A DNA stretch of 63,634 nucleotides, filler included, from Stramenopiles sp. TOSAG23-6 (lineage: Eukaryota): the NCBI GenBank assembly GCA_900128565.1. It is 10 parts of 10 records of this genome, joined end to end, with 100 filler letters (N's around TTAATTAATTAA, not from the genome) between each part and the next. Parts side by side here need not be neighbours in the genome. Positions count along the whole stretch, not along the records: positions 38,394 to 45,957 come from LT636549.1; 9 more parts are not named here. The stretch is one strand, 5' to 3'. Positions 7,690-63,621 of the stretch are shown in pieces. The number at the start of each line of letters is the position of its first letter. Within the stretch, counting starts at the first letter, position 1. The position numbers and the translations under genes were made by a program. Below the pieces are notes generated by a model. That model was given only the letters and a program-made list of their open reading frames with translations. It was not told where the DNA came from and ran no database searches.

Positions 7690-7744
7690 TTTGTACCTAA
7701 CAAATTTTAGTTTTTTTTTTTTGAAATATTTTTCCAAAATACAT

Positions 7745-19593: not shown

Positions 19594-21377
19594 TCATGTA
19601 TGTACAATACCATTTCTTTCAAGATGTTTCACTTCTTCAGTGCTATAACCCAATATTGTAGTTAAAATTTCTTCTGTGTGCTCACCTAAAGCAGGAGGTG
19701 GTCTTCTTATGGAAGTGGGTGTCTTTGATAATAACACGGGAGATCTTCTATATTGTGAAAAAAAAAAAAAATTATGATTTAGATTATACCATTATTATTA
19801 AATTTCATGAGTGTAAAAAAATCGTTACACACAAAATTTTCTATGAAAAAAAATTCTATGAAAAATTCGAAATTTTTTTTTTTTTTTTTTTTTGAAAAAT
19901 TCGAAATTGTTTTTTTTTTTTTTTTTCTTTAAACCTACATTGTCTTCAAGCTTTCTGTTGTATCATGTACCAAATTATTATGTATGACCTGAGGATCTTT
20001 GAATACATCAGCAATGCTATTGATTGGTCCAAACGGAATTAGACCTAAAAATTGATTTGACCAGTGTGAGATTGTTTTTTTACTGAATATTTCTGATAGT
20101 ATTTTTATGAGTTCGATTCTATTTTCGACTCTTTTCTGATTACGTATTGTGAAAAATATTTTTTTTTTTGGTGAAAATTTCTTAGGTACAAATTTTCGTA
20201 TGAAAAAAAAATCGAAATGGGTAAAAAAAGTATAATGAAAAAACATACACTATTAAACTTGGGGTTATGTAACAATTTATGGCCATCATTGCCTAACCCA
20301 GAACATAATTTTATCCATTGTGATTCATTACCAGCACCAATCACCATTTTTCCGTTTGAAGAATCAAATGCTTGATAGGGTACAATTGATTCATGAGCTG
20401 TCTCTAGTCGAATAAATGTCCCATCAGTATTATTGTTATTATTAGGGTTAGGGTTATTATTATTAGGGTTAGGGTTAGTACTAGTGCTAGGATTATTCAT
20501 TTGAGATGCATTAAGATGGCTACTTCCAATATTCGCCAGTGAATGAACACATGTATCGAGTAGTGATACCTCTATTTTCTGACCAATACCAGTCTTTTCT
20601 CTTGAATAAAGAGCTGATGAAATGGCAGCTTGTGCATGAACTCCAGTCAATTGGTCAATTAATGCAACACCAGTCTTGCAAGGTGTATCCTTTGTCCCAG
20701 TGATACCCATCAAACCTCCAATACCTGATACAATGACGTCATATCCTGGATGCGTGGCATATGGACCACTCGCCCCATAACCAGAAATGGAGCAGTAAAT
20801 CAGACGAGGATTAATTGTAGACAAATTCTCATATCCTAATCCAAATTCATCCATTTTACCTGTCAAAAAGTTCTCTAGCAAAACATCTGCAGAGGCTACT
20901 AAATCTTCTATTATCTTTTTTCCAGCTGAATGATTCAAATCGACAGCAATTGATTGCTTGTTTCGGTTTGCCCCTACAAAATATGTTGATGTACCCTCAC
21001 TCGTTGCTGGAGGTGTCCAACTTCTAGTATGATCACCTGAACCTGGTATCTCCTGTAAAGTGTATATTTATGCTATAAATATATGTATGAAGAATACATT
21101 ACAAATAAAAAGTGTGAAAGCAAAAACAACACACGGAAGAAGATATATAATTCTAACTATTTAAAATATTTAAAAAATGACATACTACCTTCCAAACTTC
21201 CGCGCCGTAATCACCCAAAGACTGTGAACACATTGGTCCAGCCAGCACTCTAGTCAAGTCAACGACACGAATACCTGCCAAGGGACCAGCATTTGTTTTG
21301 CTCGAAGTAGTGCAAAATAAACGAAGAGCAGGAACAATTTTGCGTGATATACTATAATTCTTCAGCGAGTAATACAT
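19594..21377 (-). CDS. Family III CoA-transferase (CaiB/BaiF, SUGCT-like), 4 exons (21377-21186, 21052-20249, 20141-19939, 19747-19594)
   Basis: [53 protein letters not shown]. Confidence 0.92.
19748..19938 (-). mobile_element. Diverged family intron, GT...AG, 191 nt
   Basis: ACAAT|GTAGGT...TTCACAATATAG|A gives KTIRSPV. Confidence 0.7.
20142..20248 (-). mobile_element. Family intron, GT...GT, 107 nt
   Basis: AGT|GTATGT...CAATACGT|AAT gives [13 protein letters not shown] (CaiB-family PRFxTNxxRVxNR). Confidence 0.78.
21053..21185 (-). other. Ordinary canonical GT-AG intron (non-family)
   Basis: GTA|GTATGT...TTACAG|GAG gives KV|EIPGSGD; lacks the family core motif. Confidence 0.8.
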
Positions 21378-33227: not shown

Positions 33228-36200
33228 TTATAAAGTGTACCTTGGATACCCTATAACATTATTTTTTTCCTGTAATGATATGACTGATTGCCTTAAAGAC
33301 TCCTCATTTTGATTACTCGCTTTTAATTTTTGTGTAGTATCTTCAAGTAAGCGTTGCTGTCCCTCCAAATGCCGAAGCATATGTAAGTTACCATCAGCAA
33401 AACTAGCTCTATATTCGTTCAACTTTTCATTAAATTTTTGATGGTATTCTTCATTAAACTGATCATTTGCCTGATAGTGTTTTGCTCGGTGATCTTGTTC
33501 ATCCGTTTTAGTCACTGAAAATTCCAATAATCTCTGGCACAATAATCCCAATTGTTGTGCAGCCGCTTGTGCATGTTTTTCTGTTCCCAACAATTCTCCT
33601 CCAGATGCAATGTCCTGGCACCACCACCGATCACTACCCTTTAAATCTTCTTTAAATTTTATGATGGACGGGTGATTAGCGTGGTTAGCACAAATGACCT
33701 GAGTATGATGTATTTTGGAAAAATATTTCAAAAAGAAAACGTTAGGTACAAACTTTCATACGAAACAAAATCGAAATTGAANAAAAATAATACATACATG
33801 TATCAAAGACTTGCGTAATATATCTATTTGATTTGCAAGCGACACGACAGAAGTTGACATAATTTCTCTATCGTGCTCTATGTGTTGTGAAAAAATATTT
33901 GAAAAATTTTGAAAAATTCGTTAGGTACGAAATTATCTAATAAAAAAAAATATTTTGAAATTTAAAGTGGATCATGTACAAGCGGCTCCTTTCAGAGTCC
34001 AAAGTTTCCGCAAGTTTCTGTTGCTTCTCTGCTAGTTCTACAGCACTAGTTAAATCATTTCGTAAATGTTTCAAATCTCGTGAAGCATCAACTTCATACT
34101 TCCGCAAACGTGAAAGCTCTGATAAGGTAGAATCCGAAACGCTACATTCAAGTTCCTGAATTTTTTCTACAAGTACTCTTTGTTTAACAGAACTTTCCTC
34201 TTGTGTTGCTCTAAGTTCTTCTCGTAGTCTTATTTCTACTTGTCTAGAATTATTTATATTATTCAACGTCAAAAATTGTTCTTGATGTGTTGCAGAAAGA
34301 GTACCACGCATATCGGCTAATTCAGAACGGAGTGATTGAATCGTTTTAGCTTCCTTTTCCAACAAAATTTCAAGTTGCTGTTTTTCGTCCTCGGTAATGT
34401 TTCTATTATTCTTTGCTTCCTCAGCGTCATTACGGTGATTTGTTGCAATTATTTTCATTTTTTCAAGACGATTTAGAGATTCATCTCGACTGTTTCTAAT
34501 TTTATGTAATTCGTTATACAACATACGATATTGTGTATTGCAATCACTTCGAGACACTTGAATAATTTCGTGTCCTTCAATTAACAAAGATAAAAGTTTT
34601 AATATAATGTTTTGCTGATTGGTTAATTCACCAGATAAAATTGGAGCAACCTTTTTGAGCAAAGAATTTGATACCCATGTACCAAAATGTTCTAACCTTG
34701 TACGTAACGCAAAGAGGCCAGATTTATCCAGTACCAAAGAATTAGAATTTTTATCCTTTTTAAAAACATCAATCGGCAACTCCCCTTTCTCCCAGTTACT
34801 CAAAAAGCTATCATTCATATTAGCATCATTCGATTGGTTATTCATTTNATCATCACTATTTCTATGTATCTCCGAAATAATTGAATCATTCTTTTCATTA
34901 TTTTTCTCATTTTGACGATTATTTTCTTCGTTGCCTTTTTCATTTAGATTTTGTAAGCCTTCTTTTTTATTACTTGATGTTTCATTGTACCAATGTTTTC
35001 TACCTGAAACAGGGCTAACACCAATCATTCTAACTGTATTACTGCCTTTTTTGAAAACGTTAACATTCTTATCTGAACTGTTCAAATTTACATTCATTTC
35101 TTTACATTCATTATAAAATAATGAAACACTATCATGCTGTTCTTCTGTTAGGATTTTCTGCATACATTGTTTTATATCATCCTCGATTGAATTTAATGCG
35201 TCAGTAGCTTCTTTGTATTTCTCAATTTCCGAATTTTGTGAATTCATTTTTTCGGTATGATTTAAAAGATCAGCTGTAAGACGTTGAATTTTTGAAACAG
35301 ATTCCTTCGCGTGATTCTCTATTTCTTTACATTTAATACTTGATTCTTCATATTTACTCAATACATCCTCATGATCACCCTTGAGTTTACTCAATACATC
35401 CTCATGATCACCCTTGAGTTTTTTAGATGCTAATGTAACTTCCTCAAGATAACGAGTTTTTTCATTCAACTGGTGTGTCAACTCTCTGTGCTTTTCAGCC
35501 AAAGAATCTCGTTCATTTCGAGTCACATCATGTTCTAAATCTTTCTGTTTGTTTACAACTTCAAGCTGCTTTTCAAGTGCTGCTACTTCGGCATTGGCTG
35601 CATCATGCATGACTTGCAAAGAAGCCGTATTGTGAAAAATATTTAAAATTTAAAATTTGTTAGACACAAAATTTTCTATGAAAATAAATTTAGTTAGAAA
35701 ATTCAATTTTGAAAACGTCCCCTCTTTTTCTTTTGATATTTGGACATCAGCGTTAATATCACTAATATTCATTAACAATTCCTGGTGAATTGCAGCTAGC
35801 TCTATCATTTCTGCATCCCTACCTTTTAAAGTGTGCTGAAGAGTATCTCGTTCTTTTATAGATTCATGTATTGTGAAAAATATTTTTTTTTTTTGGTAAA
35901 GAAAAAAATTCATTAGGTACAAAATTTACTATGAAAAAAAAATAAATTTGAAAGAAATGATGAAAAGGTACATCATATTTTTTTGACATATTTTCAAGTT
36001 CAAGTTTTACAATTGTTTGAGATTTTTCAGACTTTTTGAGCTGACTACTTAACATATTTAATTTTTCTGCTGCCTCTTGAACATAATCTAAAAGAGCATT
36101 TTTTTCAACTTCTAGCTGATCATTTTGTTTTTTCATATTTATCATATCCTGTCCGACATTATTCAATTTATTTATATCATTTTCATATTTTTCGCGTAAG

Positions 36201-37401
36201 TGGAAAATTTCATTTGACATCGCGAATGTTTTTGATTTATTGCAACGCTTTTTGAGTTTTGCGATGGTGTCTTTTTGATTATTTAACTCAGTCCGTGCTA
36301 AACTCAACTTATCTTCCGATATTTTCATACGATCAATTGCCTCTTCCAATTGGAAATGAAGTGCTGTACTAGTGTGCGATGTATTTTGGAAAAATATTTG
36401 AAAAAAAAAAAACTAAAATTCGTTAGGTACAAATTTTCGTACGAAAAAAAAATCGAATTTGAAAAAAAATAAAACATACAAGTCGTGTCATAAAAGTTAT
36501 TTGCATCTTTTCGCAATTTCAAGATTTCCTGTCTCTGTTGCTGAATTTTGGTTTGTAACTTTGCAACATATCCACATGATGGTCCTTTCTCATTATTCAC
36601 CTGATCATTCTGCTGTGATACATTTGATACACTACTGCAATTTTGTTTATTATACTCATTATTAGGGTTAGGATTATTAGGGTTAGGGTTATTTGGGTCT
36701 AGGTAAGTGCTCTCTTGAGTTTTCTCGTTATACCAATAAAACTTGTCCGTGACTGGACATGTGCCCTTTATCCATATAGTATTAGTTTGTCTCGTAGACT
36801 TATTATCATTAGTATTTTCCTTGATATCAACATACCGTGAGTGCTTACTATTTTCCGATTTACTCCAAGTTGAATGACACTCTGACCAAGAAATTTCACC
36901 ATCTGCTGAAACGTCATATGCATCATATATATATCTCATGTCTTTCTCATTTGGTATCGGTCGAATACCAAGCATGGCCACTCCTCTCTGGAACTCTTTG
37001 AACGTAATCTTGTTGTTACGGTCAGCGTCGCAAGTAAAAAACATTTGAGCATCCGTACGCGAGCGACGTTCAAGCTGTCGCTGAAAATTTTGAAATATAT
37101 GGTTGCGGTTTGAATTCATCGTGCGCTCATTAGGCAAATTTAAATCAGAAGAAAGTTTTGCAGATCCTCGTGAATTTTCGTCGAGTGAAATAATATCATG
37201 GCCACCTTCGAAAACGTCACTAAAAACATCCATATTCTTCAAATTGTCTCCAGTTGCAGCTGCTACTGCAGCAGCAGCGGCCCAGTCAGTTGAACCTTCA
37301 GGCGGGATGCTGTAACCAGCACCTCCGATATTGAAATTATCCATTGTATAAGGTTCATCAATGGGTCCGAAATTTCTATCGAATCTCTCTCCATCCGGCA
37401 T
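33228..37401 (-). CDS. EF-hand + WW + long coiled-coil protein, 6 exons (37401-36480, 36378-35972, 35865-35721, 35624-33980, 33879-33798, 33707-33228)
   Basis: DADRNNKITFKE and DVSADGEISWSE EF-hands; W..G...KFYWYN..TQEST..DP WW; the frame is continuous only after removing 5 family introns. Confidence 0.75.
33708..33797 (-). mobile_element. Family intron, GT...AT, 90 nt
   Basis: CAT|GTATGT...AAAATACAT|CAT in frame. Confidence 0.75.
33880..33979 (-). mobile_element. Family intron, GT...AT, 100 nt
   Basis: TT|GTACAT...CAACACAT|AGAG; the adjacent AGs are out of phase. Confidence 0.72.
35625..35720 (-). mobile_element. Family intron, GG...GG by family alignment, 96 nt
   Basis: GAGG|GGACGTTTT...CAATACGG|CT; contains an in-frame stop so it must be removed. 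Confidence 0.55.
35866..35971 (-). mobile_element. Family intron, GT...AT, 106 nt
   Basis: GAT|GTACCT...CAATACAT|GAA in frame. Confidence 0.78.
36379..36479 (-). mobile_element. Family intron, GT...AT, 101 nt
   Basis: ACTT|GTATGT...AAAATACAT|CG in frame. Confidence 0.75.
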
Positions 37402-38293: not shown

Positions 38294-38492
38294 NNNNNNN
38301 NNNNNNNNNNNNNNNNNNNNNNNNNNNNNNNNNNNNNTTAATTAATTAANNNNNNNNNNNNNNNNNNNNNNNNNNNNNNNNNNNNNNNNNNNNGTTTTAT
38401 TTTTTTTTCAATTTTGAATTTATTTTCGTACGAAATTTTGTACCTAACAAATTTTTTTAAATTTTTTGTTGAAATATTTTTTCAAAATAATT

Positions 38493-39211
38493 GGTGGCGG
38501 TTCTAAGTTAGAAAATGAAATCAATAGAGAAAATCTCAAGACAATTATTCAATATTCATCATCTGCAAAAGCCTGGTGGCTTGATTTTAACAAGAATAAG
38601 AATTGTTTTCATAGAAAAGATATTCTATGTAAAGTATGTCATCTTGAAGAGAAATTAAAAAATGCAGTATCATCTGAAAAAAAAGGACATCGAAATTATG
38701 AAACACATTTATGTGCAGCGAAATTGGTTCGATGTTTGGGTGGAGGTCGTGTGACAAATTGCAAATCTGGTAAAGATCGAACATCAATGTCAGTAACACT
38801 AGAACAATCTTTATTGTTATCGGATCATTTTGGTTCAATGTTACCTCAGAAATGGCGCCCAAATAGTCAAGTATTAGTTGGTAAAGATCATGATAAATGT
38901 GCTTCAAATCTACCCCTTAAAATAGCTGAATTAATGCGAGGACATGGAACAAGGATTATTAATGTATATTTTATTCATTTTAATTTCAAATTTTTTTTTT
39001 TATGAAAATTTCGTAGCTAACAAAAAAAAAACATTTTTTTTGAAATATTTTTCTAAAAGAACAGGCACATGAAAATATGGGATTTCCAAAATTCGCATTC
39101 AATGCATTACAAAGGAAATGTTTACCCGAACCATACCGACCACCAGTAGATACACTTGTGTCAATGACACATACAGCAACAATTGGGCGCAGAGGGTTAT
39201 CTATTACATGA
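38493..39211 (+). CDS. INPP4: Inositol polyphosphate 4-phosphatase C-terminal part (exons 38493-38963, 39065-39211)
   Basis: CKSGKDRTSMSVTLEQ catalytic motif; FAFNALQ..P..YRPP. Confidence 0.88.
38964..39064 (+). mobile_element. Family intron, GT...AG, 101 nt
   Basis: AAT|GTATAT...AGAACAG|GCA gives RIIN|AHENMG. Confidence 0.8.
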
Positions 39212-39675
39212 TTTTATTTATTTTATGAAAAATATTTTTAAAAAAATGAGTAATTAAATTACATGATTTTATTTTATGAAAATTTTTTCAAAATGTTTTT
39301 TGTTTTTTTCTGTGTTGGGTACAAAATTAGATAGACAACAAAATCATATGGTACATGTAGTTGATGTGAAAAGTATTTTTTTGACACATCCAACATTTCA
39401 TTATAACTAAATCATATATAAAACTGAAATATAGAATCAGCGATGGGAGCAGGTTTGTAGGTTTGTAGTAATTTTAGCTGCCAAATATAGTGAAGGATTT
39501 CGTGTTGAGAGAACGAAGAATTTTGAAATTTTCTAAAATTTGAATTTTTTGACCGGATAGAAAAGAATCGTTGTGCTTTCACATTTATTTAATTCCAAAT
39601 AGGATTATCGTAATTTACAATATAAAACAAAATTCTACTCGAAACAAAATAAACAACACCAGCTGCTTGAGTAAC

Positions 39676-41527
39676 ATGGATGTGAAACCAATTGTATTCG
39701 TGCCAATGTGTGCAGATCTGCTTCACGATGGTCATATCAAGTTGTTAAACGTAGGAAGAAAGTTTGGATCTATTACAGTTCTATTAATGACCGACGCTGC
39801 AATGCTTACATACAAACGTACGCCCACAATGTCGTATGAGCAAAGATATACTTTAATACGTTCTTTACGCCAAGTTGATAATGTTTTACCATGTAATGGT
39901 CCACATACGTACTCATCAATGGTAACACAGTATAAACCTTTGTTTTTCCTCCACGGAGATGACTGGAAAAATGGTCCTCAATCGGCACCCAGAGAAGCAG
40001 TAATAAAAGCTTGTTCCGTATATGGAGGTAAGGTGATTGAACCACCATATCATAAAGGTGTTTCTAGCACATCTCTACAAAAATCCATTAAAAGCACGAT
40101 ATATGAACAAAAGTGTCTCGGAGTGATTCTTCGTTCTGCTTTAAACGATTTAAAACGAACGCCAGAACATGTCACTTTTGAACATGTACGTTTTCAAAAT
40201 TGAATTATTAATTTTTTTTCATACGAAATTTCGTACCTAACGATTTTTTTCCATTAAAAAAAAAATCACAATACATGGTATTGGCACAAGTATAATACAT
40301 CGAATAATATCAGGACATGAATTTGATGAAGAATGTCAATCTGCAATGATTCGATCAATTACATCGTTGTATCCAATTGACAAGAAAGAACTGGTTATGA
40401 ATCATGATACAAGTTATTGTGGTATCTGGCATATGTTAGCCAAGACAACTCAAAAAAGTGGCCGAGTGATTGAGCGAACGAATGAAAATGGTATGAGTTC
40501 ACCATATTATCGATATATGGACACAGCAGTATCATCTCTTGCACCCTTCAAACCTGAATTAATTGAAACCTTAATGATGGTTGAGAATAATGATGCTTAT
40601 CATCCAAATATAGTAATGAATAAAGGACATTTACTTGCACAGGTGACATTCTTTATAGGTCCTGTAAACTTTTATTATACTATTAGAGGTAAAAGATTAT
40701 GTGTCCCAATGAATAGTGGGGATTCGTGTTTAATTACTCCATTTATACCACATTCATTTGCTTCTCGAGATCCATCAAAATATTCTGCAATTGTAGCTGT
40801 AACATTCAGTGGAAATGTTCGAGGTTTAATTGCAGATTTAATGCATCTTGATAAAAAAGTTTTGCTAGATGTTGCTGGAGATGCAAGAAAATCAAAAGAT
40901 GTACAATTACGCCGAATCCAAAGATATGCTGATTTGCGTGGAATCAGTGATATGAAAAAGCTTATGAGTGATTTGAAGAATAATCCTCATGAGGTTGCCA
41001 AAAAATTAAAAGTGTCTGTAGATTTAATAAGTGAAAGACCACTTAGTATTTCTGATGAAGTAATCTGTGAACATAAAAACACTAATCCGATCCCAGTTTT
41101 GCAAAAATCAAATGAAAAACATTGTTTAGCTTGCTCCAAAATAATGCCCGAAGTCGGAGGATATGAGTGGATACTACGCAGTGCTGATACATCGTGCAGT
41201 CCATTCTTCAATTATATCTATAACCATGGAACTAAAAGTGTTAAACTACGAAATTGCAATTCAGGTGTAGATGTTATTGTTGCACCTGGTGATAGTTTGA
41301 TTTTGAAACCGTTCATCACAGTTGTATTTGCCCCTTGTGAATCATTTGAACCTAATCCTATCCATAACAGAAATAAATCAGAAGCAAGTACTATGTCGCA
41401 GTCATATGCTAATTTGCTCGTTGTTAAAGTTGGAGGGTGTGTCCAGCGATCAACTCTAGATGAAATATCTACATTTGATGACGCGGGAAGGAAACGAATG
41501 TTATCACAAAAGAGTCGATGGTGGTAA
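39676..41527 (+). CDS. mpnS: Cytidylyltransferase - methylphosphonate synthase (MpnS/HEPD-family) fusion, ~586 aa (exons 39676-40185, 40277-41527)
   Basis: N-terminal MCADLLHDGH..MTD..YKR..HGDDW..PY.KGVSST; then LNDLKR HTH, YYRYMDTA, PFKPE, NKGHLLAQ..FIGPVNFYY, MNSGDSCLITPFIPH. Confidence 0.85.
40186..40276 (+). mobile_element. Family intron, GT...AT, 91 nt
   Basis: CAT|GTACGT...CAATACAT|GGT joins the two ORFs inside the HTH (TFEH|GIGTS). Confidence 0.85.
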
Positions 41528-41637
41528 TAAAATATGAAAAAGACAATAATAGTTTGAGATATATGACTACAAACTACAATGACAATGTAGACACCACATC
41601 ATATTTATTTATCTAAATATAAAGATTTATATATCAT

Positions 41638-42680
41638 CTAATGTACATTTTTATACTCTAATTCAATTTCTTTTAATTCTTTGTTCGAGACTTTGATCTT
41701 CATAGCATTAGATATGTATTTTGGGAAAATATACCATAAAAAAATGTCGTCAGGTACAAAATCTTCATAGTAAAAAAAATTGAAATTTAAAATGAATGAT
41801 GGGAACGTACATGATTTCATTTGGGACGACTTGCGCTGGTATTTCTTTCAAGCATAGTAAAATATGTTCAAAATCAAAAGGAGTTCCTTCTACACAAGAA
41901 AAAAGCCATTCGTGTTTTGATTGTAGGTTATCGGACGTATCCTTATTATAATTTCTAGTATTTGGTACATTTCTGGTATATTCTTTTTTGTTGGTAAATA
42001 ATTCAGTATCTAGTTGCGTATGAGTCAAGTTATTATTCTTATATTTGCTATTTGTGTCATTTCTATCATTCCTTGTATGTTTTGTAGATGGATTGGGAAT
42101 TTCTATTGAAAGAGGATTTTCATTTTTTCCATGATTTACCCAACTATTTTCATATTTTTTATCATTTCCCCAAATATAGCGACCAATTGAATCAACTGCT
42201 GAATTTACAAATCCAAATGTTTCTTCATATTGATATTCCTTTTCTTGGACAGACTGATTGGTATTTGTAGTTCTTCTATTTGCTACATCAAGTTTGTTTG
42301 GATCTATTTCAATTCTAGATGATTGGATACTTTGTTTACAGCTTTCTTCATGGTGATGTCTATTGCCCATTGATTCCATTTCTTCCATTGGCCGAGAAAT
42401 TTTGGTTTTGCTTTTTTCTTTTGTATATTTATCATTTTCATTATTTAGCATAGTATTTTGTGCAAATTCTTGTTGAATCCAAAATTGTCGTCCATCCTCA
42501 ATCATTTGCAATAATGCCAAAGAAACACGAAATACTACTGTCCAACCCTCCGCAAGAAAGCAATCCCAAATACGCCGTACAGCATCAAATGAAAAATTGT
42601 AACTAAATATTGTCATAAACCATTGTGAAGCATACATGCATTTTGTAAAAATATTTAAAAAAAAAAGATTTGTTAGGAAC

Positions 42681-42715
<35 letters not shown>

Positions 42716-43661
42716 AAGTTCAATCTTTAAAAAGTACATTGTAGGAGTTATATTTATCTCTGCAAAATAAGCAGCTAGTTTAGGCAAATGTTTTTCTATT
42801 AGTTTCTGAAATTGATAAAGTAAAACATTAAATTTTGGCAAACCTTCTCGAAATATTCCCTTCATGTCATGTGATTTCATAATTGAATCAAGCATCCAAA
42901 ATGCATTTTCTTCCGGCATATAACATAGAAATATACCTGCGATATATCCCATGCCTTGACAATAACCTACATCAGGATCGTGTACAGAATATGCACATAA
43001 GATGTTGTAAAGAGCTCTTTGACCAGCATGTATTGTGAAAAAATATTTTGGTTAGAAATTCGTTAGGTATGAAATTTACTATGAAAAGAAATATTTGAAA
43101 TTAATTTTGAAAACGTACACCACCTGAGTCGCGGAAGAATTGATGCTTTGGGAAAGTTCGGCTTATATCTCGGGTTATAATTGCAGTATGTGGAGATTTC
43201 ATAGTACTATACGCTTTGTATTGTCCTGGGTTAGCCCATAACAATTCGTCACCCCCTGTTAATGCAGCCCACATAGCACCTCGTAGTGGATCAGAGATCC
43301 CTTTTCTAATACGGAGTTTTAGTGCTCTTCGACGGCGTGGTGTTGATACATCAAGATTAATAAGTGTTGCCTGCCAGAATTCTATATTTGTTTGACCTAT
43401 ATTTATTGTTTTATTGTTATTGATTGATTTGGTATGCCTGGTTTTATTCTTTGGAATTTTACTTTTCTTCCGACCGTGTTTTTCACCTTCATTAACTCTA
43501 CTATTAGTGTTGTTCTTTCTGTGTGCTTCAACAATAATACCTTTGTTCTGATTCAAAACCCTCGACGTTTTATTATTTACTTTATCAAATACTCGAGTCC
43601 GATTAATTTTTGATATACCCATTAACCCGAAACTCAGCCCAAGTCCAGTACTGGCGTTCAT
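41638..43661 (-). CDS. TBC-domain Rab GTPase-activating protein, 4 exons (43661-43119, 43027-42738, 42635-41811, 41713-41638)
   Basis: RKGISDPLRGAMW, IITRDISRTFP, VGYCQGM, MYASQWF, RIWD. Confidence 0.92.
41714..41810 (-). mobile_element. Family intron, GT...AT, 97 nt
   Basis: AT|GTACGT...AAAATACAT|A in frame. Confidence 0.75.
42636..42737 (-). mobile_element. Family intron, GT...AT, 102 nt
   Basis: AT|GTACTT...AAATGCAT|G restores PTMYASQWF; otherwise it is read as a poly-F insert. Confidence 0.82.
43028..43118 (-). mobile_element. Family intron, GT...AT, 91 nt
   Basis: GGT|GTACGT...CAATACAT|GCT gives DSGG|AGQRALYNIL. Confidence 0.82.
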
Positions 43662-43894
43662 ATTTAATCTCGATTCTGAGGTCTATTGTTGAAGAGTAAA
43701 AGACAGAAAATTGAGGGAGAGGAGCCTTTCTTTCATGTAACCGAATTTGAATTTCAATTTTTTTTTTGTTTTTTTGACGAAACCGGAAACCGACCGTTTA
43801 CTACCGTTATTGACATTTCTTCTTTATCTGAGAACAGTCCAATATAATTTATGAGTAGAAGTATATTATCATTGTATTAGTAGAAAATGCTTCC

Positions 43895-44659
43895 ATGAGT
43901 AAACAAACAAAAGAAGAACGAGCAAAAGCAGCGCGATTACGAAGAGGAGAAACTAATGCAAAGTTCAAACGCATTCCTCAACTAACAATTGGTGACGACT
44001 TACCACATTTTATATGTAATACTCAATTTGGAACTATTAGCTCGAGAGACTTTGTTGGTGGTCAGTGGACTCTATTATTTTCGTATAGTAAAGCATTTGT
44101 GCCGACAACAACAACTGAGATGGGGGCAGTATCAGTTTTAGAAAAGCAATTCAAAGCACGTAACTGCAACGTTTTATGTATTGGCTTGGAGTCTCGTGAA
44201 CGAATTCGATCTTGGAAAGTAGAAATTGATAGAGTATACAAATGCGACGTGAAATTTCCTATAATTAATGATACAGATGGGAGTTGTTTATCTTTATGTA
44301 ATATGCTCGATAGACCGGAACGCTTTGGGCCACCGTTTGGTGCCGAAGGTGTTTTACGTGCAAATAGTGTAGTCTTTTTAATTGATCCTTTTAAAAAGGT
44401 CCGTTATAGAATGGATTATTCAAGTAGTGTAGGTCGTAATTTCTATGAGATTATTCGAGTGTTGGATTCATTACAGATGAAAGATTATCATCAAGTAAAT
44501 ACTCCTGCTAATTGGGAACAAGGCGATGCCTTACTAGTTCCTACAACGACACCTGAGAACCAAATCCCTATACTATACCCTCTTGGGGTCAATAAACAGA
44601 GGCCTTATTTATGGACGACAAATTTTCAAGACGATGAAGATGGAAATAATAGTGATTAG
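43895..44659 (+). CDS. 1-Cys peroxiredoxin (Prx6)-like protein lacking the peroxidatic Cys
   Basis: FVPTTTTEMG in place of FTPVCTTELG; GRNFYEIIRVLDSLQ, TPANWEQG, PYL. Confidence 0.85.
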   Translation: MSKQTKEERAKAARLRRGETNAKFKRIPQLTIGDDLPHFICNTQFGTISSRDFVGGQWTLLFSYSKAFVPTTTTEMGAVSVLEKQFKARNCNVLCIGLESRERIRSWKVEIDRVYKCDVKFPIINDTDGSCLSLCNMLDRPERFGPPFGAEGVLRANSVVFLIDPFKKVRYRMDYSSSVGRNFYEIIRVLDSLQMKDYHQVNTPANWEQGDALLVPTTTPENQIPILYPLGVNKQRPYLWTTNFQDDEDGNNSD

Positions 44660-44819
44660 TATTTTAGTGTATGCTAATAAATAAGATTGTAATACAGTAC
44701 ATATATCTTTATATTTTTACTACAATTCACAATAGCTTTTTGATTTCTACTATCAGTGCCTTTCATAAAAAGATTCAATTCTAACTCTTTACAATTATCT
44801 CAAAATTAGTTTTGACAAA

Positions 44820-45869
<1,050 letters not shown>

Positions 45870-45900
45870 TTAGGTACAAAATTTCGTATGAAAACAAAAA

Positions 45901-45957
45901 GTAAAGTAAAGTAAAGTAAAGTAAAGTAAAGTAAAGTAAAGTAAAGTAAAGTAAAGT
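45901..45957. repeat. (GTAAA)n microsatellite inside a family intron at the contig end
   Basis: About 11 perfect units. Confidence 0.9.
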
Positions 45958-46109
45958 NNNNNNNNNNNNNNNNNNNNNNNNNNNNNNNNNNNNNNNNNNN
46001 NTTAATTAATTAANNNNNNNNNNNNNNNNNNNNNNNNNNNNNNNNNNNNNNNNNNNNACAAAATTTCGTACGAAAAAAAAATTCGAATTTGAAAAAAAAT
46101 AAAACATAC

Positions 46110-53419: not shown

Positions 53420-54196
53420 CTGTATAAGTGTGAAATATTTCCAAAAAGATTACATTCTTTCAGTTAGAGATTTTTCCAGACGTTAAAAAAACATATAATA
53501 AAGCTGTATCAAACCTTAATGAGTGAATAGCATAGTAAAATATTGAAAAAAAGATGACCTACATGTATTGTGAAAAAATATTTTTTTTGTAAAATTCGTT
53601 AGGTACAAAATTTCGTACGANNNNNNNNNNNNNNNNNNNNNNNNNNNNNNNNNNNNNNNNNNNNTTAATTAATTAANNNNNNNNNNNNNNNNNNNNNNNN
53701 NNNNNNNNNNNNNNNNNNNNAATAATATGGAAAAATATCTCGTAGGTAGAATGATAAATAATATATAACTTATCTAGTAGAATCTATAATTATAATAAAA
53801 GGACAGTACATCATGCTAATGTAATTTTTAAATTATCATTATCATCTAAGGATTGAGTTCATTAATATTTTTATTAATTAAGACATTAATTCAGTTTTTT
53901 AAAAATTCATTAACTTAGGGTTAGGGTACTCGATTTTGAGACTAGAATCTGATAAACTCTCTCTCGTGTCTCGCTGATCTCTCTCACTGATCTCTCACTG
54001 ATCAGCCTATAAAGTATATTTTTCCAGTATACGTCGAGGTACTGTAATTAAAACGCGGAAAATTCTATCTGTCCACTCCGGGATAAATGTGTAATGAATG
54101 AAACCTTTTCACACTCTTGCCATATTCTTTCTTATTTTGTATTATTAGGGTTCGTAAGTGATTTCTACTATAATAGTTGCTTGTCCAATAAAGGTG

Positions 54197-56333: not shown

Positions 56334-59279
56334 ATGAGTAAAGTGCCATCAGCACCATCCGCACTATCCCTTGACTGGTCTTTAGGAGTGAACAATGATA
56401 TTGTTGATGGAGTTCATAGTTTGTGTGACGGTAGCCGAAATGCTCTTTTTTATGTCGCTGCACACTCAGGTGTAATTTATGACTTTCAGAACAGAACTCA
56501 GAAACTCCTTCAAGGTCATTGTAACGTAATTACTTCTGCATGTACAAGTCAGGACAAAAGATGGATAGCGACAGCAGATAAAGGTAATGATTCGATGATT
56601 GTCGTTTGGGACTCTTTCACTGGGGCACCCATCAAAACTATATTTAATCCTCACGAAAAAGGTGTAATTGCCATGGATATGTCACCTGATGCAATGCTTC
56701 TCGTCACATTATCTAACGATGAATCTAATGAAACCGAAGGAACATCAGATGAAACCAGTGAAAGAGAAATTGTACAAGAAATTTGTTTATGGGAGTGGAC
56801 CGCGGATAGAGTTGGTCCATTATACAGATCTAGAGTACCTATAAATGATGTACAAACATCTGTACGTTTTAACCCCAACGACGTTCGGGAAATTGTGAGT
56901 AATGGTTCACAACGTGTTGTGTTTTGGTGTTGGGAAAAACGAAAATTAGAGTCCATTTCACCAGTTATTAATCCTTCTGATTTCCAGCAAGAAATTGGAA
57001 CTTTCACTCAGTCTGTATTTTTGCCAAATGATTCAAGTGTAGTAACAGCGACAACAGACGGTGACGTTGTATTATGGGATTGTACGACAACTTCACCTGA
57101 TAAAGCACGTCGGGCAGTAAAGATAATTCATTTATCAGAATCAGGAATATTGTGTATTTATGTGGCTAATAATTATATCGTTACTGGTTGCGCTAGTGGT
57201 GCGGTTCGTTTCTTTGATTTACGTTTTCGAATTGAAGGTTGGTTTGAGGATATAAAAGCTGGTCCAGTAACTTCATTATCATTTGCAAATGGTATACCAC
57301 GACTCTCTGTTTCATCTGATCCAGATTGCTTTGCTATACAAGATTTTATTTGTGGTACAAAAAAATCCTTAGTTGTATGTTTCCATCATTCGTTTCAAAA
57401 TTTAATTTAAATATTTTTTTCATAGTACATTTCGTACCTAACGATGTTTTTCACTAAAATAAATATTTTTCACAATACATGTAGGTCTTGAAGCCCCACT
57501 TTGTGACGAAGTTGATGAAACTCGGCGTAGAGGTGTTCTTTTATTACAAGGAATCTCTAGTTCAATTCGAGGTTTATCCACCCATCCGCGAATGTCACAT
57601 GTTGCACTCAGTTCATCGAATGGCTCTGTTCAATTATGGGACTTTGAATCAAAACGGTTATTGATGATACGTTCTTTTGACGATAGTAAAGGTGAACCAG
57701 TATCGCTTCAGTATCATCCTAGGGGTAATTATCTTGTCCAAGGTATGGCAGATGGGACTCTAATGTGTCTTCATCCAACTACGCTTGAGAATGTACCGAA
57801 TGGATTATTTAAAACTGGTGAAGGGGCAATCACTGATATACGTTTTTCACTTGATGGATTATTTATGGCAACAGCTGACACTGAGTTGTGTGTTGCTTTG
57901 TATTATATGGGTGAGGAATGGATATTTTTGGGAAAGTATAAAAGCCATTCTGCGCCTATTACAGGTTTAGAATTTGGAATTTCAAACAAAGGTGTACCTT
58001 TTCTTGTTTCTGTTGGTGAAGATAGGCATATTGTTGAATACGACATTGAAGGATCTTCAGTAAGAAATGGTCTTTTATTAGCTCATCCAAGGAATAAAGT
58101 AGAGCAACGTGCTATTCCTACGACATGTATGGTATATAAAAATCCCACAAAAGATCCTAGTGATGACACGAGTGGAGAAGATTTTGTTTTGATTGCAAAT
58201 AATGAATTTAAAGTTTGTACATGGAGTACAACATACGAAGTGTGTAGACACACATCTCTTGGGCCTACGTATGTATGTTTTTTTTTTTTTTCAATTTTGA
58301 ATTTTTTTTTCATACGAAATTTTGTACCTAACAATTGTTTTTAGATTTTTTTTTGAAATATTTTTCTACAATACATGGAGGCCCCTTAAATAGGATGTTG
58401 CCGATACCAAATGGAGAAACAAACGGTAATGAGAATTCTGTATATCAAAGTTCAAAGTCTAAATATATTGCATATTCTACATTAAACAAAGTCGTTGGTA
58501 TCGCCAAGCTTCCATTGGATGGTAATGGAAATAGTACTGTTGGATTAATTGCACATCCTGATGAAATTGCGAATATATCAGTTTCTTATGATGGTCGATA
58601 TTTACTAACTGCCGGGGCGAATGATCGTACGGTCAATATATGGAAAATAAACACCAATATTGTTGATGATGATGACGTAGTGATAGATGATAATTTTAAA
58701 TCAAAAAACATTAAACCAAGTATGATACCATTTATCTCTCAATTAGATGGAGGTATTTCTGGGAGTGTTTATAAAGATCTCTGTGACTATTTTTATTATG
58801 CACAATTGAGAATGCAAGGTGAAAAATGTTTGAATGATCGAGAGATCACAGGAAAAATTACATTGTCTGAAATTCCCAATATAATGCGTGCTTTAGGGTA
58901 TTACCCAAGCAAATGGGAATGTGCACGAATGTGCAACGAAATTAAATACAGTAATTTTGTACAGTCCGGCAAAATCGAGACTTTAATTGATTTAGATTGT
59001 TTGATTAAGTTGTATGTGAATCACAGACCATTGTTTACCGTTGACAAGGAAGCAATTACGAAAGCATTTGAAACACTTACGCAAGGGACAATGGAACTCG
59101 AGTGGAAAGAACTTTTATCAAGGTTGAAGAATGAAGGCGAATGTATGAGTAACGAGGAAATGGATGCATGCTTACATGCCTTGGTGGATAAAGAACAACC
59201 ACCAGCACTTGTAGATCCGAAAAAGTTTGCTACAGATGTGTTGGGTTTTGAAGAGTATGTTGAAGAACATGAAGGTTAG
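56334..59279 (+). CDS. CFAP251: Cilia/flagella WD40 + EF-hand protein CFAP251/WDR66 (exons 56334-57374, 57481-58272, 58377-59279)
   Basis: LQGHCNVI, LGPTYGGP, LPLDGN, IAHP, DYFYYAQL, MRALGYYPS, YVNHRP. Confidence 0.88.
57375..57480 (+). mobile_element. Family intron, GT...AT, 106 nt
   Basis: GTT|GTATGT...CAATACAT|GTA gives SLV|VGLE; a GT-AG register shifted by 4 nt is also in frame. Confidence 0.65.
58273..58376 (+). mobile_element. Family intron, GT...AT, 104 nt
   Basis: TAT|GTATGT...CAATACAT|GGA gives LGPTY|GGPLN. Confidence 0.85.
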
Positions 59280-62667: not shown

Positions 62668-63621
62668 ATCGTCTTCTGAAGTAAACACGAAATTAGCTAA
62701 TTTGATATCCCTATGAGCAATATCTTTGGAATGACAATACTGAATTGCTCCTAACATTTTCCGTACCTAGAGAGAAAACAAAATGTAAAAAAAAAAAAAA
62801 TCTTAGGTACAACATTTCGTATGAAAAAAAATTGAAAAAAAAAAATTAAATTTTTTTTTCTTAGGTACGAAATTTCGTATGAAAAAAAAATTGAAAAAAA
62901 AAATAAATTTTTTTTTCTTAGGTACAAAATTTCGTATGAAATATTTAAATAAAAAAACGTACGAGACGTCGAGTCGCTGATTCTGAATATCGTTTACCAG
63001 GTTGTGCTTGTAATCTATCATATAACTCTCCCCCAGTACATAACTCCATGACCATATATTGTACAGAAATATTCTAAAACTTGAAAAAAAAATTATGTTT
63101 TGCTTTTTTGCTTTTTTGCTTTTTTGCTTTTTTGCTTAGGTACAAAAATCCGTATGAAAAAAAAATGTTAGGGTTAGGGTTTGATATATTTTTTTTGTCC
63201 ATTTGTAAAGCAAACATTGAAATGAGTGAGGAAAAAAGTACATATGAATAATATCACCTTGTCTATATGTTCGATGGAGTTTAACAATGTTTGGATGATC
63301 AAGTTGTTTTAAAATTTCGATTTCGTTTAAAAGTGTTTTTCGATATTTTGGTAACACTTTTTGTAAGTCAATAATTTTCATGGCATAACGAACTCTAGTG
63401 CGTCGATGTTCAATGACGACGACGGAACCTGTCGTACTTTCACCCAACTCTCGTGTACCAATATCATACACATCTTCTACCTTTTCATCTGTACGTATGG
63501 GTACGAGATTACTATAGGATGAACACATCCGTAAAGGTGGGTTGTGTCGTGGTTCAGTCAAATAATCATCATCTACACCGCTTTTTTTATGACTATGACT
63601 TGTACTAGAACATAAACCCAT
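62668..63621 (-). CDS. CAMK/CDPK-like Ser/Thr kinase, N-terminal part (exons 63621-63242, 63053-62963, 62766-62668)
   Basis: MGLC myristoylation/palmitoylation-type start, YAMK, NEIEILKQLDHPNIVKL, MELCTGGEL, HRDIKLAN. Confidence 0.9.
62767..62962 (-). mobile_element. Family intron, GT...AG, 196 nt, three tandem core motifs
   Basis: CTC|GTACGT...CTCTAG|GTA gives RRL|VRKML. Confidence 0.8.
63054..63241 (-). mobile_element. Family intron, GT...AT, 188 nt
   Basis: AT|GTACTT...ACAATATAT|G gives IHMVMELCTGG. Confidence 0.82.

What the first reader, a model, noticed from the sequence alone, without database searches (positions are those of the whole stretch)
40100..41527. Methylphosphonate-synthase-like gene embedded in a eukaryotic genome
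Seen: LNDLKR, SGRVIER, YYRYMDTA, PFKPE, NKGHLLAQVTFFIGPVNFYY, MNSGDSCLITPFIPHSF and a C-terminal Trp. His (40628), Gln (40640) and His (40751) form a 2-His-1-Gln set, with Phe at His+14 (40670) and Ile at His-6 (40733). Known (recalled, needs alignment): Nitrosopumilus maritimus MpnS uses H148/Q152/H190, with F162 and I184 distinguishing it from HEP dioxygenases, and methylphosphonate is a proposed source of methane in oxic seawater, attributed to marine archaea and bacteria. The gene holds a host-family intron and shares a contig with INPP4 and a TBC RabGAP, arguing against contamination. Inference: a protist, probably via horizontal transfer, may synthesise methylphosphonate. No PEP mutase is visible in this window.
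Basis: partly seen in the sequence, partly recalled or inferred. Interest (0 to 1): 0.9.

Follow-up and report, generated by a model that had tools for sequence, protein, structure and literature searches.

The report
Eukaryotic cytidylyltransferase–methylphosphonate synthase fusion gene
A marine protist carries and expresses a spliced gene that joins a phosphonate-activating enzyme to a methylphosphonate-synthase-type enzyme, which suggests that eukaryotes, and not only bacteria and archaea, may make the compound thought to feed methane production in oxygenated seawater.

Summary
The ORF at 40241-41527 is MpnS-like: its best solved-structure match is MpnS 6b9s. His/Gln/His, Phe and Ile sit at the stated codons and align to H148/Q152/H190/F162/I184. 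The gene is larger than reported. It starts at ATG 39676, and exon 1 encodes a Fom1-type cytidylyltransferase plus the first part of the MpnS domain. A 91-nt intron (40186-40276) separates the exons. Contigs in two polyA metatranscriptome runs show exactly this 91-nt splice; a DNA run does not. The intron has no GT-AG reading. It belongs to a repeated intron family found in neighbouring host genes, so contamination is very unlikely. The protein falls in a well-supported clade of cytidylyltransferase-MpnS fusions from marine metagenomes, eukaryote transcriptomes (Telonema) and IMG/VR contigs. None of 26 named prokaryote genomes in the tree is in that clade, and the best prokaryote match is 33% identical. 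In one IMG/VR relative the fusion lies beside PEP mutase, phosphonopyruvate decarboxylase, a reductase and a LicD-family transferase. The likely function is to make methylphosphonate and activate it with CMP for attachment to glycoconjugates. No partner pathway gene lies in this window, and the enzyme's product is untested.

The parts
39603..39675 (+). 5' untranslated region (minimum extent)
   Evidence: A polyA-RNA contig of run X7 covers 39603-39793 with 1 mismatch (record 25). The true transcript start is not known.
39676..40185 (+). Exon 1 coding part (170 aa). Holds the cytidylyltransferase domain (about residues 4-140) and then the first ~30 residues of the MpnS helix-turn-helix region, including LNDLKR.
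   Evidence: PF01467 E 9.9e-12. Best PDB hit is 5x3d, the Fom1 N-terminal CyTase, E 9.7e-35 over residues 4-140. The N-terminus MDVKPIVFVPMCAD matches homologue starts. tblastn of the L082 fusion covers 39688-40161 at 52.5% identity.
39724..39735 (+). HxGH nucleotidyltransferase motif (H17-D-G-H20)
   Evidence: Read. It aligns to the HPGH of Fom1 CyTase.
40153..40155 (+). Lys codon of LNDLKR, equivalent to MpnS K28
   Evidence: In P0004, 'ALNDLKRTPE' aligns to MpnS 23-32 'ILNDIKRRPE'. The window has the identical LNDLKRTPE. The role of K28 in phosphonate binding is recalled, not seen in a paper.
40186..40276 (+). 91-nt intron, written here as GT..AT. The boundaries can slide by -4 to +1 nt because ACATG is repeated at both ends. 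No GT-AG reading exists.
   Evidence: Joint 40181->40273 'skips 91', both=5, in RNA run X4 (1 contig) and X7 (1 contig, 82+124 nt, 0 mismatches); none in DNA run X3. The junction ...TPEHVTFEH|GIGTSII... matches uninterrupted homologues residue for residue. 12 of 12 related contigs showing both halves are collinear with no insertion at this site.
40212..40250 (+). Conserved core of the host's intron family (T-run, palindrome TACGAAATTTCGTA, CCTAAC branch-site-like motif)
   Evidence: 29 blastn matches at E<=1e-3 in the window, self included, on both strands. Metagenome word depth above 10^4 in the two bins that hold a copy (table 2).
40277..41527 (+). Exon 2 coding part (416 aa plus TAA): the rest of the helix-turn-helix region and both cupin domains of the MpnS-like enzyme
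   Evidence: AlphaFold2 model pLDDT 88.8. Best Foldseek matches are MpnS 6b9t/6b9s, TM 0.82-0.83.
40628..40753 (+). Active-site segment: His 40628, Gln 40640, Phe 40670, Ile 40733, His 40751
   Evidence: read in frame; alignment to MpnS H148/Q152/F162/I184/H190.
41528..41585 (+). 3' untranslated region (minimum extent)
   Evidence: An RNA contig of X4 covers 41377-41585 with 0 mismatches (record 12).

Best explanation
Window 39676-41527 (+) is one two-exon nuclear gene of a marine protist with stramenopile affinity. It encodes a 586-aa bifunctional enzyme. The C-terminal two thirds is a methylphosphonate-synthase-type, Fe(II)/O2-dependent 2-hydroxyethylphosphonate (2-HEP) dioxygenase with a 2-His-1-Gln site. 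I infer that it cleaves the C1-C2 bond of 2-HEP to give methylphosphonate (MPn) and CO2. The N-terminal third is a Fom1-type cytidylyltransferase. I infer that it condenses CTP with a phosphonate, most probably the MPn just made, to give a CMP-phosphonate. A LicD-type transferase encoded elsewhere would then use that donor to put the phosphonate on glycans or glycoproteins. Shown here: the gene model, splicing and expression, eukaryotic residence, domain identities, conservation of the metal, substrate and discriminating residues, and the clustering of relatives with a full PEP-to-2-HEP pathway. Inferred: the product (MPn rather than hydroxymethylphosphonate), the cytidylyltransferase's substrate, the order of the two reactions, and that the organism supplies 2-HEP.
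For: Domain identity: MpnS 6b9s is the best PDB sequence hit (E 1e-38) and the best fold match (TM 0.82-0.83, against 0.75-0.76 for S. albus HEPD and 0.64-0.68 for PhpD). H/Q/H, F and I align to MpnS H148/Q152/H190/F162/I184, while HEPD 6b9r has Y and G at the last two. R102, Y110 and N145 equivalents are conserved, as is the K28 equivalent. 127 of 151 family sequences share Q/F/I. Exon 1: PF01467 and the Fom1 CyTase domain 5x3d at E 1e-34. Fom1 CyTase makes CMP-HEP from CTP and HEP (Rice 2019, PMC6697681, passages). Fusion: polyA RNA contigs in two runs join the exons in frame, and homologues of 553-630 aa have the same architecture without an intron. Pathway context: in L082 the 564-aa fusion lies next to PEP_mutase (E 3e-51), a TPP decarboxylase that JGI names phosphonopyruvate decarboxylase, an NAD-binding reductase, a LicD+GH38 protein, a nucleotide-sugar transporter and glycosyltransferases. 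Independent fusions of MpnS-type domains to the unrelated PF12804 cytidylyltransferase family occur in the Nephroselmis transcript P0103 and in P0077. Host residence: the intron belongs to a family present in the TBC and other host genes. GC3 of 0.22-0.28 matches in-frame neighbours at 0.21-0.29. Neighbours include TBC, Polo-box, DDRGK, PPR and EML-like WD40 genes.
Against: There is no biochemical test. The meaning of F162/I184 rests on my recall of Born et al. 2017, which is not held, plus the single MpnS/HEPD contrast. The window protein is only 26% identical to MpnS in the structural alignment. Its clade is separate from all sampled prokaryote MpnS genes, and the tree has no HEPD outgroup. 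Seven close relatives have Tyr in place of Phe, so product specificity may vary within the clade. No PepM, Ppd, reductase or LicD gene is in the 63.6-kb window, and the organism's genome could not be searched. Fom1's CyTase acts on HEP, not MPn, so the substrate assignment is a guess. The three RNA runs come from one study, and the data are assembled contigs, not raw reads.
Confidence: 0.62

Rival explanations
1. Same gene and domains, opposite order of reactions. The cytidylyltransferase first makes CMP-2-HEP, as Fom1 does, and the dioxygenase domain works on the CMP-ester to give CMP-methylphosphonate directly.
For: The nearest characterised relative of exon 1 uses HEP as substrate. In fosfomycin biosynthesis the next enzyme acts on the CMP-ester (abstract listing of PMC8158854, otherwise recalled). 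Fusion would favour channelling.
Against: All residues that contact the free phosphonate of 2-HEP in MpnS (R102, Y110, N145, K28) are conserved. That fits a free phosphonate better than a bulky CMP ester. The roles of these residues are recalled, not read.
Confidence: 0.15
2. The dioxygenase domain is an HEPD-type or other-specificity enzyme. It would make hydroxymethylphosphonate plus formate, or act on another hydroxyalkylphosphonate, so no methylphosphonate is formed.
For: HEPD 6b9r scores almost as well as MpnS (E 9.5e-37 against 1.1e-38). The clade is distinct from tested MpnS enzymes. Q/Y/I variants exist among the closest relatives.
Against: The window has Phe and Ile where the solved HEPD has Tyr and Gly. 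The fold is closer to MpnS. Automated JGI annotation of clade members is 'methylphosphonate synthase', which is weak evidence.
Confidence: 0.12
3. The gene is an expressed but functionally decayed relic of a transfer, for example from a giant virus. Without the rest of the pathway it makes nothing useful.
For: It stands alone among unrelated host genes. Relatives on IMG/VR contigs carry the whole cluster.
Against: The 586 codons are intact. All 23 invariant alignment columns are kept (in which the window sequence is the reference row). It is spliced and polyadenylated in the sea, and its composition is fully adapted to the host. Eukaryotic pathway genes are usually dispersed.
Confidence: 0.07
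4. The gene is not the protist's: bacterial or viral contamination, or a chimeric scaffold.
For: The window is a gapped scaffold from what look like small single-cell-type runs. No listed contig of the independent DNA run spans the whole gene together with its neighbours.
Against: A spliced intron of the host's own family lies inside the ORF, and the same family is in the TBC gene 1.5 kb away on the same N-free block 38394-45957. PolyA RNA is present. An independent metagenome (X3) covers the gene and its neighbours at about 99% identity and an even depth of 4-6. Composition matches the host.
Confidence: 0.03

Closest known systems
Methylphosphonate synthase MpnS of Nitrosopumilus maritimus (PDB 6b9s/6b9t)
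   Same: Helix-turn-helix plus bicupin fold (TM 0.82-0.83). 2-His-1-Gln site, Phe and Ile at the discriminating positions, and R102/Y110/N145/K28 equivalents.
   Different: About 26% identity. It lies in a separate clade with no sampled prokaryote genome member. It is fused to an N-terminal cytidylyltransferase, encoded in a eukaryotic nucleus and interrupted by an intron.
Streptomyces albus 2-HEP dioxygenase, class with a 2-His-1-Gln site (PDB 6b9r)
   Same: Same fold and metal ligands, and nearly equal sequence score.
   Different: It has Tyr/Gly where the window has Phe/Ile, and a lower fold score (TM 0.75-0.76).
Fom1 N-terminal cytidylyltransferase domain, Streptomyces wedmorensis (PDB 5x3d)
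   Same: PF01467 fold and the HxGH and ISST-type motifs. E 1e-34 over 137 residues. A phosphonate (HEP) cytidylyltransferase fused to another phosphonate-pathway enzyme.
   Different: Fom1's partner domain is PEP mutase; here it is the MpnS-type dioxygenase. The substrate here is unknown.
Bacterial phosphonyl-tailoring pathway (PntC cytidylyltransferase plus LicD-like transferase; Rice et al. 2019, PMC6697681)
   Same: The same logic: make a phosphonate, activate it as a CMP-conjugate, and transfer it to a surface glycan. Relatives of the window gene sit beside a LicD-domain protein and glycosyltransferases.
   Different: PntC is PF12804 and prefers AEP. Here the activating domain is PF01467, fused to MpnS, in eukaryotes and IMG/VR contigs.
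Non-canonical 'introner elements' of Amoebophrya (Farhat et al. 2021, PMC7789003)
   Same: A repeated intron family, short direct repeats overlapping the exon/intron boundaries (here ACATG) and ends that are not GT-AG.
   Different: The host affinity is different (stramenopile-like). This family keeps a GTAYGT 5' end and a CCTAAC branch-like motif and ends in ACAT. In the minimum-energy fold its ends are not paired.

Membership tests
Methylphosphonate synthase (MpnS) | HEPD/MpnS fold: N-terminal helix-turn-helix plus two cupin domains | tested here: met
   AlphaFold2 model pLDDT 88.8, pTM 0.87. Top Foldseek hits are 6b9t/6b9s, TM 0.82-0.83.
Methylphosphonate synthase (MpnS) | 2-His-1-Gln iron ligands (H148, Q152, H190) | tested here: met
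   Aligned; codons 40628, 40640 and 40751.
Methylphosphonate synthase (MpnS) | Phe162 and Ile184, which hold the Gln in place and separate MpnS from 2-His-1-Gln HEPDs (meaning recalled from Born et al. 2017, not read) | tested here: met
   F at 40670 and I at 40733 align to F162 and I184. HEPD 6b9r shows Y and G there.
Methylphosphonate synthase (MpnS) | Phosphonate-binding residues R102, Y110, N145 and K28 of the partner subunit (roles recalled) | tested here: met
   R, Y and N are conserved in the alignment. K28 corresponds to the K of LNDLKR in exon 1.
Methylphosphonate synthase (MpnS) | Groups with biochemically proven MpnS and apart from HEPD in a rooted phylogeny | tested here: inconclusive
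   The tree of 80 rows puts the window in a fused-only clade beside, not within, the prokaryote MpnS-type sequences. No HEPD outgroup and no labelled N. maritimus row were included.
Methylphosphonate synthase (MpnS) | Converts 2-HEP to methylphosphonate plus CO2 | not testable with these tools
   Needs an enzyme assay.
2-HEP dioxygenase (HEPD) | Tyr/Gly at the MpnS F162/I184 positions (2-His-1-Gln class) or a 2-His-1-Glu site (PhpD class; recalled) | tested here: not met
   The window has F/I and Gln. PhpD structures score lower (TM 0.64-0.68).
Cytidylyltransferase-like, PF01467 (Fom1 CyTase type) | Pfam model above the gathering score | tested here: met
   45.6 bits against a cut-off of 21.
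Cytidylyltransferase-like, PF01467 (Fom1 CyTase type) | HxGH motif and C-terminal ISST-type motif | tested here: met
   HDGH at 39724-39735. GVSSTSL aligns to Fom1 GISSTRL.
Cytidylyltransferase-like, PF01467 (Fom1 CyTase type) | CTP-dependent cytidylylation of a phosphonate | not testable with these tools
   Inferred from 5x3d similarity and from Rice 2019 passages.
Canonical U2-type spliceosomal intron | GT...AG termini | tested here: not met
   The six possible placements of the RNA-supported 91-nt gap read AC..AT, CA..TA, AT..AC, TG..CA, GT..AT and TA..TG.
U12-type AT-AC intron | ATATCC 5' consensus and a branch site close to the 3' end (recalled) | tested here: not met
   The 5' end reads ATGTACGT. 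Only about 11 of 18 family copies have A two bases before the GT.

The most novel reading that the evidence does not exclude
A clade of bifunctional 'CMP-methylphosphonate synthases', confined to eukaryotes and giant-virus-like contigs, exists in several unrelated marine protist lineages (a stramenopile-like host here, Telonema, and a convergent PF12804 fusion in the green alga Nephroselmis) and on large virus-classified contigs. It serves to decorate cell or virion surface glycans with methylphosphonate. Protists and their viruses would then be an unrecognised and actively expressed source of the ocean's methylphosphonate, and so of aerobic methane. Surveys built on prokaryote reference genes would have missed it.
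Probability: 0.4. Interest if true: 0.9.

Novelty: new variant of a known kind. Interest (0 to 1): 0.74.

Why it matters
Methylphosphonate is the proposed substrate for methane production in oxygenated seawater. The surveys I could read attribute its synthesis to Thaumarchaeota, SAR11 and a few other bacteria. In Lockwood 2022 (PMC9381506) the word 'eukaryot' does not occur in the main text. Acker 2020 reports MpnS mostly in SAR11 single-cell genomes. An expressed nuclear MpnS-type gene, belonging to a clade seen in many marine contigs (GC 36-57% in the 12 contigs showing both halves) and in eukaryote transcriptomes, would add a new class of producers. The fusion to a cytidylyltransferase, together with the LicD/glycosyltransferase context in relatives, gives a testable route by which methylphosphonate becomes esterified to the high-molecular-weight material in which it is found. 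These sequences are only about 30% identical to prokaryote MpnS. Read-mapping surveys that require 60% identity for mpnS (Lockwood methods passage) would not count them.

Tried and rejected
- Own-genome search for pepM, ppd and pdh: no genome is held.
- Born et al. 2017: not held by DOI or PMC id, so residue roles are recalled. Supplementary tables of Lockwood 2022 and Acker 2020, which list the taxa carrying MpnS, could not be seen and might include eukaryotes.
- Exon-1 tail alone against PDB: no hit because it is too short. Solved by using P0004.
- Whole-record search of the IMG/VR contigs for a capsid gene: records not held, so I could not verify that L081-L083 are viral. Exact look-ups gave no organism names.
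- PepM homologue search: PepM is about 55% identical across bacteria and animals, so it says nothing about which fusion-bearing eukaryotes have the pathway.
- Rfam scan of the window: 0 matches.
- Intron RNA fold: -17.4 kcal/mol, z = -2.0, ends not paired in the minimum-energy fold. This gives no support for a structure-guided excision model.
- An AT-AC (U12-like) reading of the intron: rejected on the family consensus.
- Canonical GT-AG alternatives using the AGs at 40289-40290 or 40312-40313: rejected, because they break the frame or delete residues that align to MpnS.
- Read laying bins without cover (for example 38647-38899) and the many low-complexity 'joints' toward 45860-45866: treated as uninformative repeat artefacts.
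- The GC3 values I computed for the Polo and helicase ORFs were out of frame and are not used.
Full report
THE OBSERVATION. In the frame of ORF 40241-41527 (+), the codons are His 40628, Gln 40640, Phe 40670, Ile 40733 and His 40751. The motifs LNDLKR (40141-40158), SGRVIER, YYRYMDTA and PFKPE and the C-terminal WW are all present. Against all PDB sequences the ORF's best hit is methylphosphonate synthase 6b9s (E 1.1e-38), followed by Streptomyces albus HEPD 6b9r (9.5e-37). In the printed alignment the five residues pair with MpnS H148, Q152, F162, I184 and H190, while the HEPD shows Tyr and Gly at the two discriminating positions. The equivalents of R102, Y110 and N145 are also conserved. Pfam and NCBIfam have no model that matches this part.

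THE GENE IS BIGGER THAN REPORTED. The same-strand ORF just upstream begins with ATG at 39676. It encodes a cytidylyltransferase: PF01467 at 45.6 bits against a cut-off of 21. Its best solved relative, at E 9.7e-35 over residues 4-140, is 5x3d, the N-terminal cytidylyltransferase domain of Fom1. According to passages of Rice et al. 2019 (PMC6697681), that domain transfers CMP from CTP to 2-hydroxyethylphosphonate. The closest relatives in the 5.8-billion-protein collection are 35-47% identical over the exon-2 part. They are mostly 553-631 aa and carry PF01467 in front of the MpnS-like part. Aligning them fixes the exon junction at ...LNDLKRTPEHVTFEH|GIGTSIIHRIISGHEFD..., residue for residue. 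The intron is therefore 91 nt, which gives the correct frame shift. A full-length homologue (P0004) aligned to 6b9s shows that 'LNDLKR' corresponds to MpnS residues 24-29, including K28. So exon 1 carries the cytidylyltransferase and also the start of the MpnS domain, and the intron interrupts the MpnS domain itself. The protein is 170 + 416 = 586 aa.

SPLICING, EXPRESSION AND CONTIG INTEGRITY. The stretch is held almost completely by two small runs of a coded 'organism A', which may be the source. It is held partly by independent seawater metagenomes and by polyA metatranscriptomes. I laid one DNA run (X3) and three polyA RNA runs (X4, X6, X7, all from study P3) on the N-free block 38394-45957. 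One contig in X4 and one in X7 (82 + 124 nt, no mismatch) join 40181 to 40273, skipping exactly 91 nt, with 5 nt of positional ambiguity. X3 shows no such joint. Other RNA contigs cover 39603-39793, 39930-40098, 40329-40490, 40705-41311 and 41377-41585, which is both domains plus short UTRs. X3 contigs at about 99% identity and a depth of 4-6 cover 39387-45886 in eight listed pieces, so the gene and its neighbours are present at equal depth in an independent sample. No single listed piece spans everything. These are assembled contigs, not raw reads, and they say nothing about expression level.

THE INTRON IS A HOST-SPECIFIC, NON-CANONICAL ELEMENT. None of the six placements that the RNA joint allows is GT-AG; they include GT..AT and AT..AC. 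The 39-nt core of the intron (40212-40250) has 29 matches in the window, self included, on both strands. Lined up, the copies share T|GTAYGTTTT at the 5' end. They share a T-run, a palindrome and GTACCTAAC in the middle, and ...ATATTTTTYCACAATACAT| at the 3' end. Many copies sit between adjacent same-strand ORFs. In a script that tried GTAYGT...ACAT-type removals, 13 sites gave at least one solution that left ±50 codons open. For 9 of these I checked that the solution coincides with the family's consensus ends as aligned. One is in the TBC gene (43028-43118, minus strand), where it joins ...FFRDSGG to AGQRALYNIL.... The script allowed several candidate ends per site, so this supports the rule without proving it. 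Only the MpnS intron has RNA evidence. Copies flank most scaffold gaps, and metagenome depth over the core exceeds 10^4. A precedent for repeated, non-GT/AG intron elements with 3-5-nt direct repeats at the boundaries is Amoebophrya (PMC7789003, passages). The intron's own fold is unremarkable (z = -2.0, ends unpaired). In 12 of 12 related metagenome contigs that show both halves, out of 20 examined, the halves are collinear with no insertion at this site. The intron was therefore inserted into an already fused gene in this lineage.

THE HOST. Pfam on 32 ORFs of the window finds RabGAP-TBC, Polo boxes, DDRGK, PPR, EML-like WD40, a DEAD-helicase C-terminus, peroxiredoxin, GidA and CoA-transferase III. 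This is a eukaryotic nuclear context. The 'INPP4' ORF matched no family. For the Polo-box ORF, the 120 listed hits include five with full organism names, all stramenopiles: Triparma, Bacillariaceae, two Nitzschia and Cylindrotheca. Five more have truncated MMETSP names that look like diatom genera. These ten are 43-53% identical over about 40% of the query. That is a weak, single-protein indication of stramenopile affinity. The gene's GC (0.35-0.38) and GC3 (0.22-0.28) match in-frame neighbours (GC3 0.21-0.29).

RELATIVES AND PHYLOGENY. A pattern-plus-tblastn scan of one genome for each of 185,579 prokaryote species found 102 relatives, of which the best 80 were kept. The best is 33% identical, a stand-alone gene in marine Rhodospirillaceae and other alphaproteobacterial MAGs. 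IMG/VR gave 6 relatives, three of them 40% identical over the full length on contigs of 16-164 kb. For the tree I chose 80 rows: the window, 30 fused, 3 NTP-transferase-fused and 14 stand-alone database proteins, 26 named prokaryote loci and 6 IMG/VR loci. I left out near-identical 564-aa cluster members and many lower hits to save time. The method was quick IQ-TREE with SH-aLRT support only and a midpoint root. The window lies in a clade of 33 rows with support 99. That clade is made up of 29 fused proteins, three IMG/VR loci and the window. None of the 26 prokaryote genomes is inside it. Telonema subtile (P0022, named) is in a sister subclade. No HEPD outgroup was available, because the scan patterns were MpnS-like. 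Of 151 sequences checked, 127 have Q/F/I, 7 have Q/Y/I (including close relatives of the window), 2 have Q/F/L, 2 have Q/F/G, 1 has Q/I/I and 12 did not match my pattern.

FUNCTIONAL CONTEXT IN RELATIVES. In L082, a 164-kb IMG/VR contig with GC 41-45%, the 564-aa fusion is flanked by several pathway genes. These are PEP mutase (E 2.8e-51), a TPP enzyme that JGI names phosphonopyruvate decarboxylase, and an NAD-binding HIBADH-like reductase. Also present are a LicD+GH38 protein, a nucleotide-sugar transporter, a Stealth/galactosyltransferase protein, a Cas1p-like acyltransferase and an MFS transporter. Together these make a complete route from PEP to 2-HEP, the fusion enzyme, and the machinery to put an activated head group on glycans. 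Rice 2019 describes this logic for bacterial phosphonoglycans. I could not verify that L081-L083 are viral. L083's neighbours include a YqaJ-type recombinase and occur in a 0.22-0.45 µm Tara fraction. A 2026 catalogue mentions phosphonate clusters in Imitervirales and Mirusviricota (PMC13524828, one passage), and an NCLDV AEP cluster was noted in PMC8942020 (passage). The Nephroselmis pyriformis transcript P0103 and also P0077 fuse an MpnS-type domain (Q/F/I) to a PF12804 MobA/LicC-type transferase instead. So two unrelated cytidylyltransferase folds have been joined to this enzyme, which argues for a functional coupling. In the window itself, tblastn with the L082 PepM, Ppd, reductase, transporter and acyltransferase, and with Hydra and Evansella PepM, finds nothing at E <= 1.

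WHAT IT MOST LIKELY DOES. The dioxygenase domain makes methylphosphonate from 2-HEP. The cytidylyltransferase domain turns a phosphonate, most likely that product, into a CMP-conjugate for transfer to glycoconjugates. Domain identities, residue conservation, fusion, expression and pathway context in relatives are shown. Product, substrate order and the supply of 2-HEP are inferred.

NOVELTY. Six literature searches found no report of MpnS in a eukaryote or of a cytidylyltransferase-MpnS fusion. The passages I read from the two large marine surveys name only bacteria and archaea. Supplements were closed, and subscription papers, including Born 2017, are not held, so this is absence in what I could search, not proof. 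Automated JGI annotation already labels some clade members 'methylphosphonate synthase'. I rate the finding a new variant of a known kind: a known enzyme chemistry in a new architecture and a new host domain.

Noticed in passing
window, 29 sites, e.g. 43028-43118(-), 57375-57480(+), 58273-58376(+), 36379-36479(-), 35866-35971(-), 45577-45684(-), 30937-31035(+), 20142-20248(-): A family of ~90-110-nt introns sharing T|GTAYGTTTT, a T-run plus palindrome plus GTACCTAAC core, and a ...CACAATACAT| 3' end with no terminal AG. Removing them restores open frames in several host genes. RNA proof exists only for the copy in the MpnS gene. This may be a transposon-derived 'introner' family with GT..AT (or TG..CA) ends in a stramenopile-like protist.
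   Followed up: partly
L082:17-16302 (IMG/VR contig of 164 kb); the same cluster in L081 and L088-L091: An apparently complete cluster for methylphosphonate synthesis and glycan tailoring: LicD+GH38, nucleotide-sugar transporter, Ppd, PepM, reductase, CyTase-MpnS, Stealth/galactosyltransferase, Cas1p-like acyltransferase and MFS. Its proteins recur on 12-21 marine contigs each, up to 200 kb or more. Whether the contigs are giant-virus or picoeukaryote DNA was not settled.
   Followed up: partly
P0103 (Nephroselmis pyriformis transcriptome), P0077: An independent fusion of an MpnS-type domain (Q/F/I) to a PF12804 MobA/LicC-type nucleotidyltransferase. In the tree these lie outside the PF01467-fused clade.
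   Followed up: partly
P0001/P0146-P0149 cluster, P0005, P0041; L063: Close relatives with Tyr in place of Phe at the MpnS F162 position while keeping Ile184 (Q/Y/I). Their product specificity may differ.
   Followed up: no
window gaps, e.g. 38294-38393, 45958-46057, 53621-53720: Scaffold gaps have a fixed pattern (44 N, 12 bases, 44 N) and mostly abut copies of the intron element. The assembly breaks at this repeat, and there are also many single-N positions between 10 and 15 kb.
   Followed up: partly
window ~63081-63209: CCCTAA (telomere-like) repeats and AAAAAGC repeats next to a copy of the element, near the end of the window.
   Followed up: no
L015 (Vampirovibrionales MAG) and L050 (Planctomycetota MAG): Stop-to-stop ORFs of 739 and 719 aa with the MpnS motif starting at about residue 400-430. 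Some prokaryote MpnS genes may therefore also have long N-terminal extensions. The domains were not identified.
   Followed up: no
L092:2059-2217 and L104:1050-1208: A second, weaker cytidylyltransferase-like match (36% identity to window residues 82-134) lies just downstream of the fusion gene in two metagenome contigs.
   Followed up: no
window 7691-9049 (+): An ORF with a weak sulfatase-type match (SGSH_C, E 4e-5, below the curated cut-off). Sulfatases accompany mpnS in Nitrosopumilus (recalled), but this one is 30 kb away and is probably unrelated.
   Followed up: no
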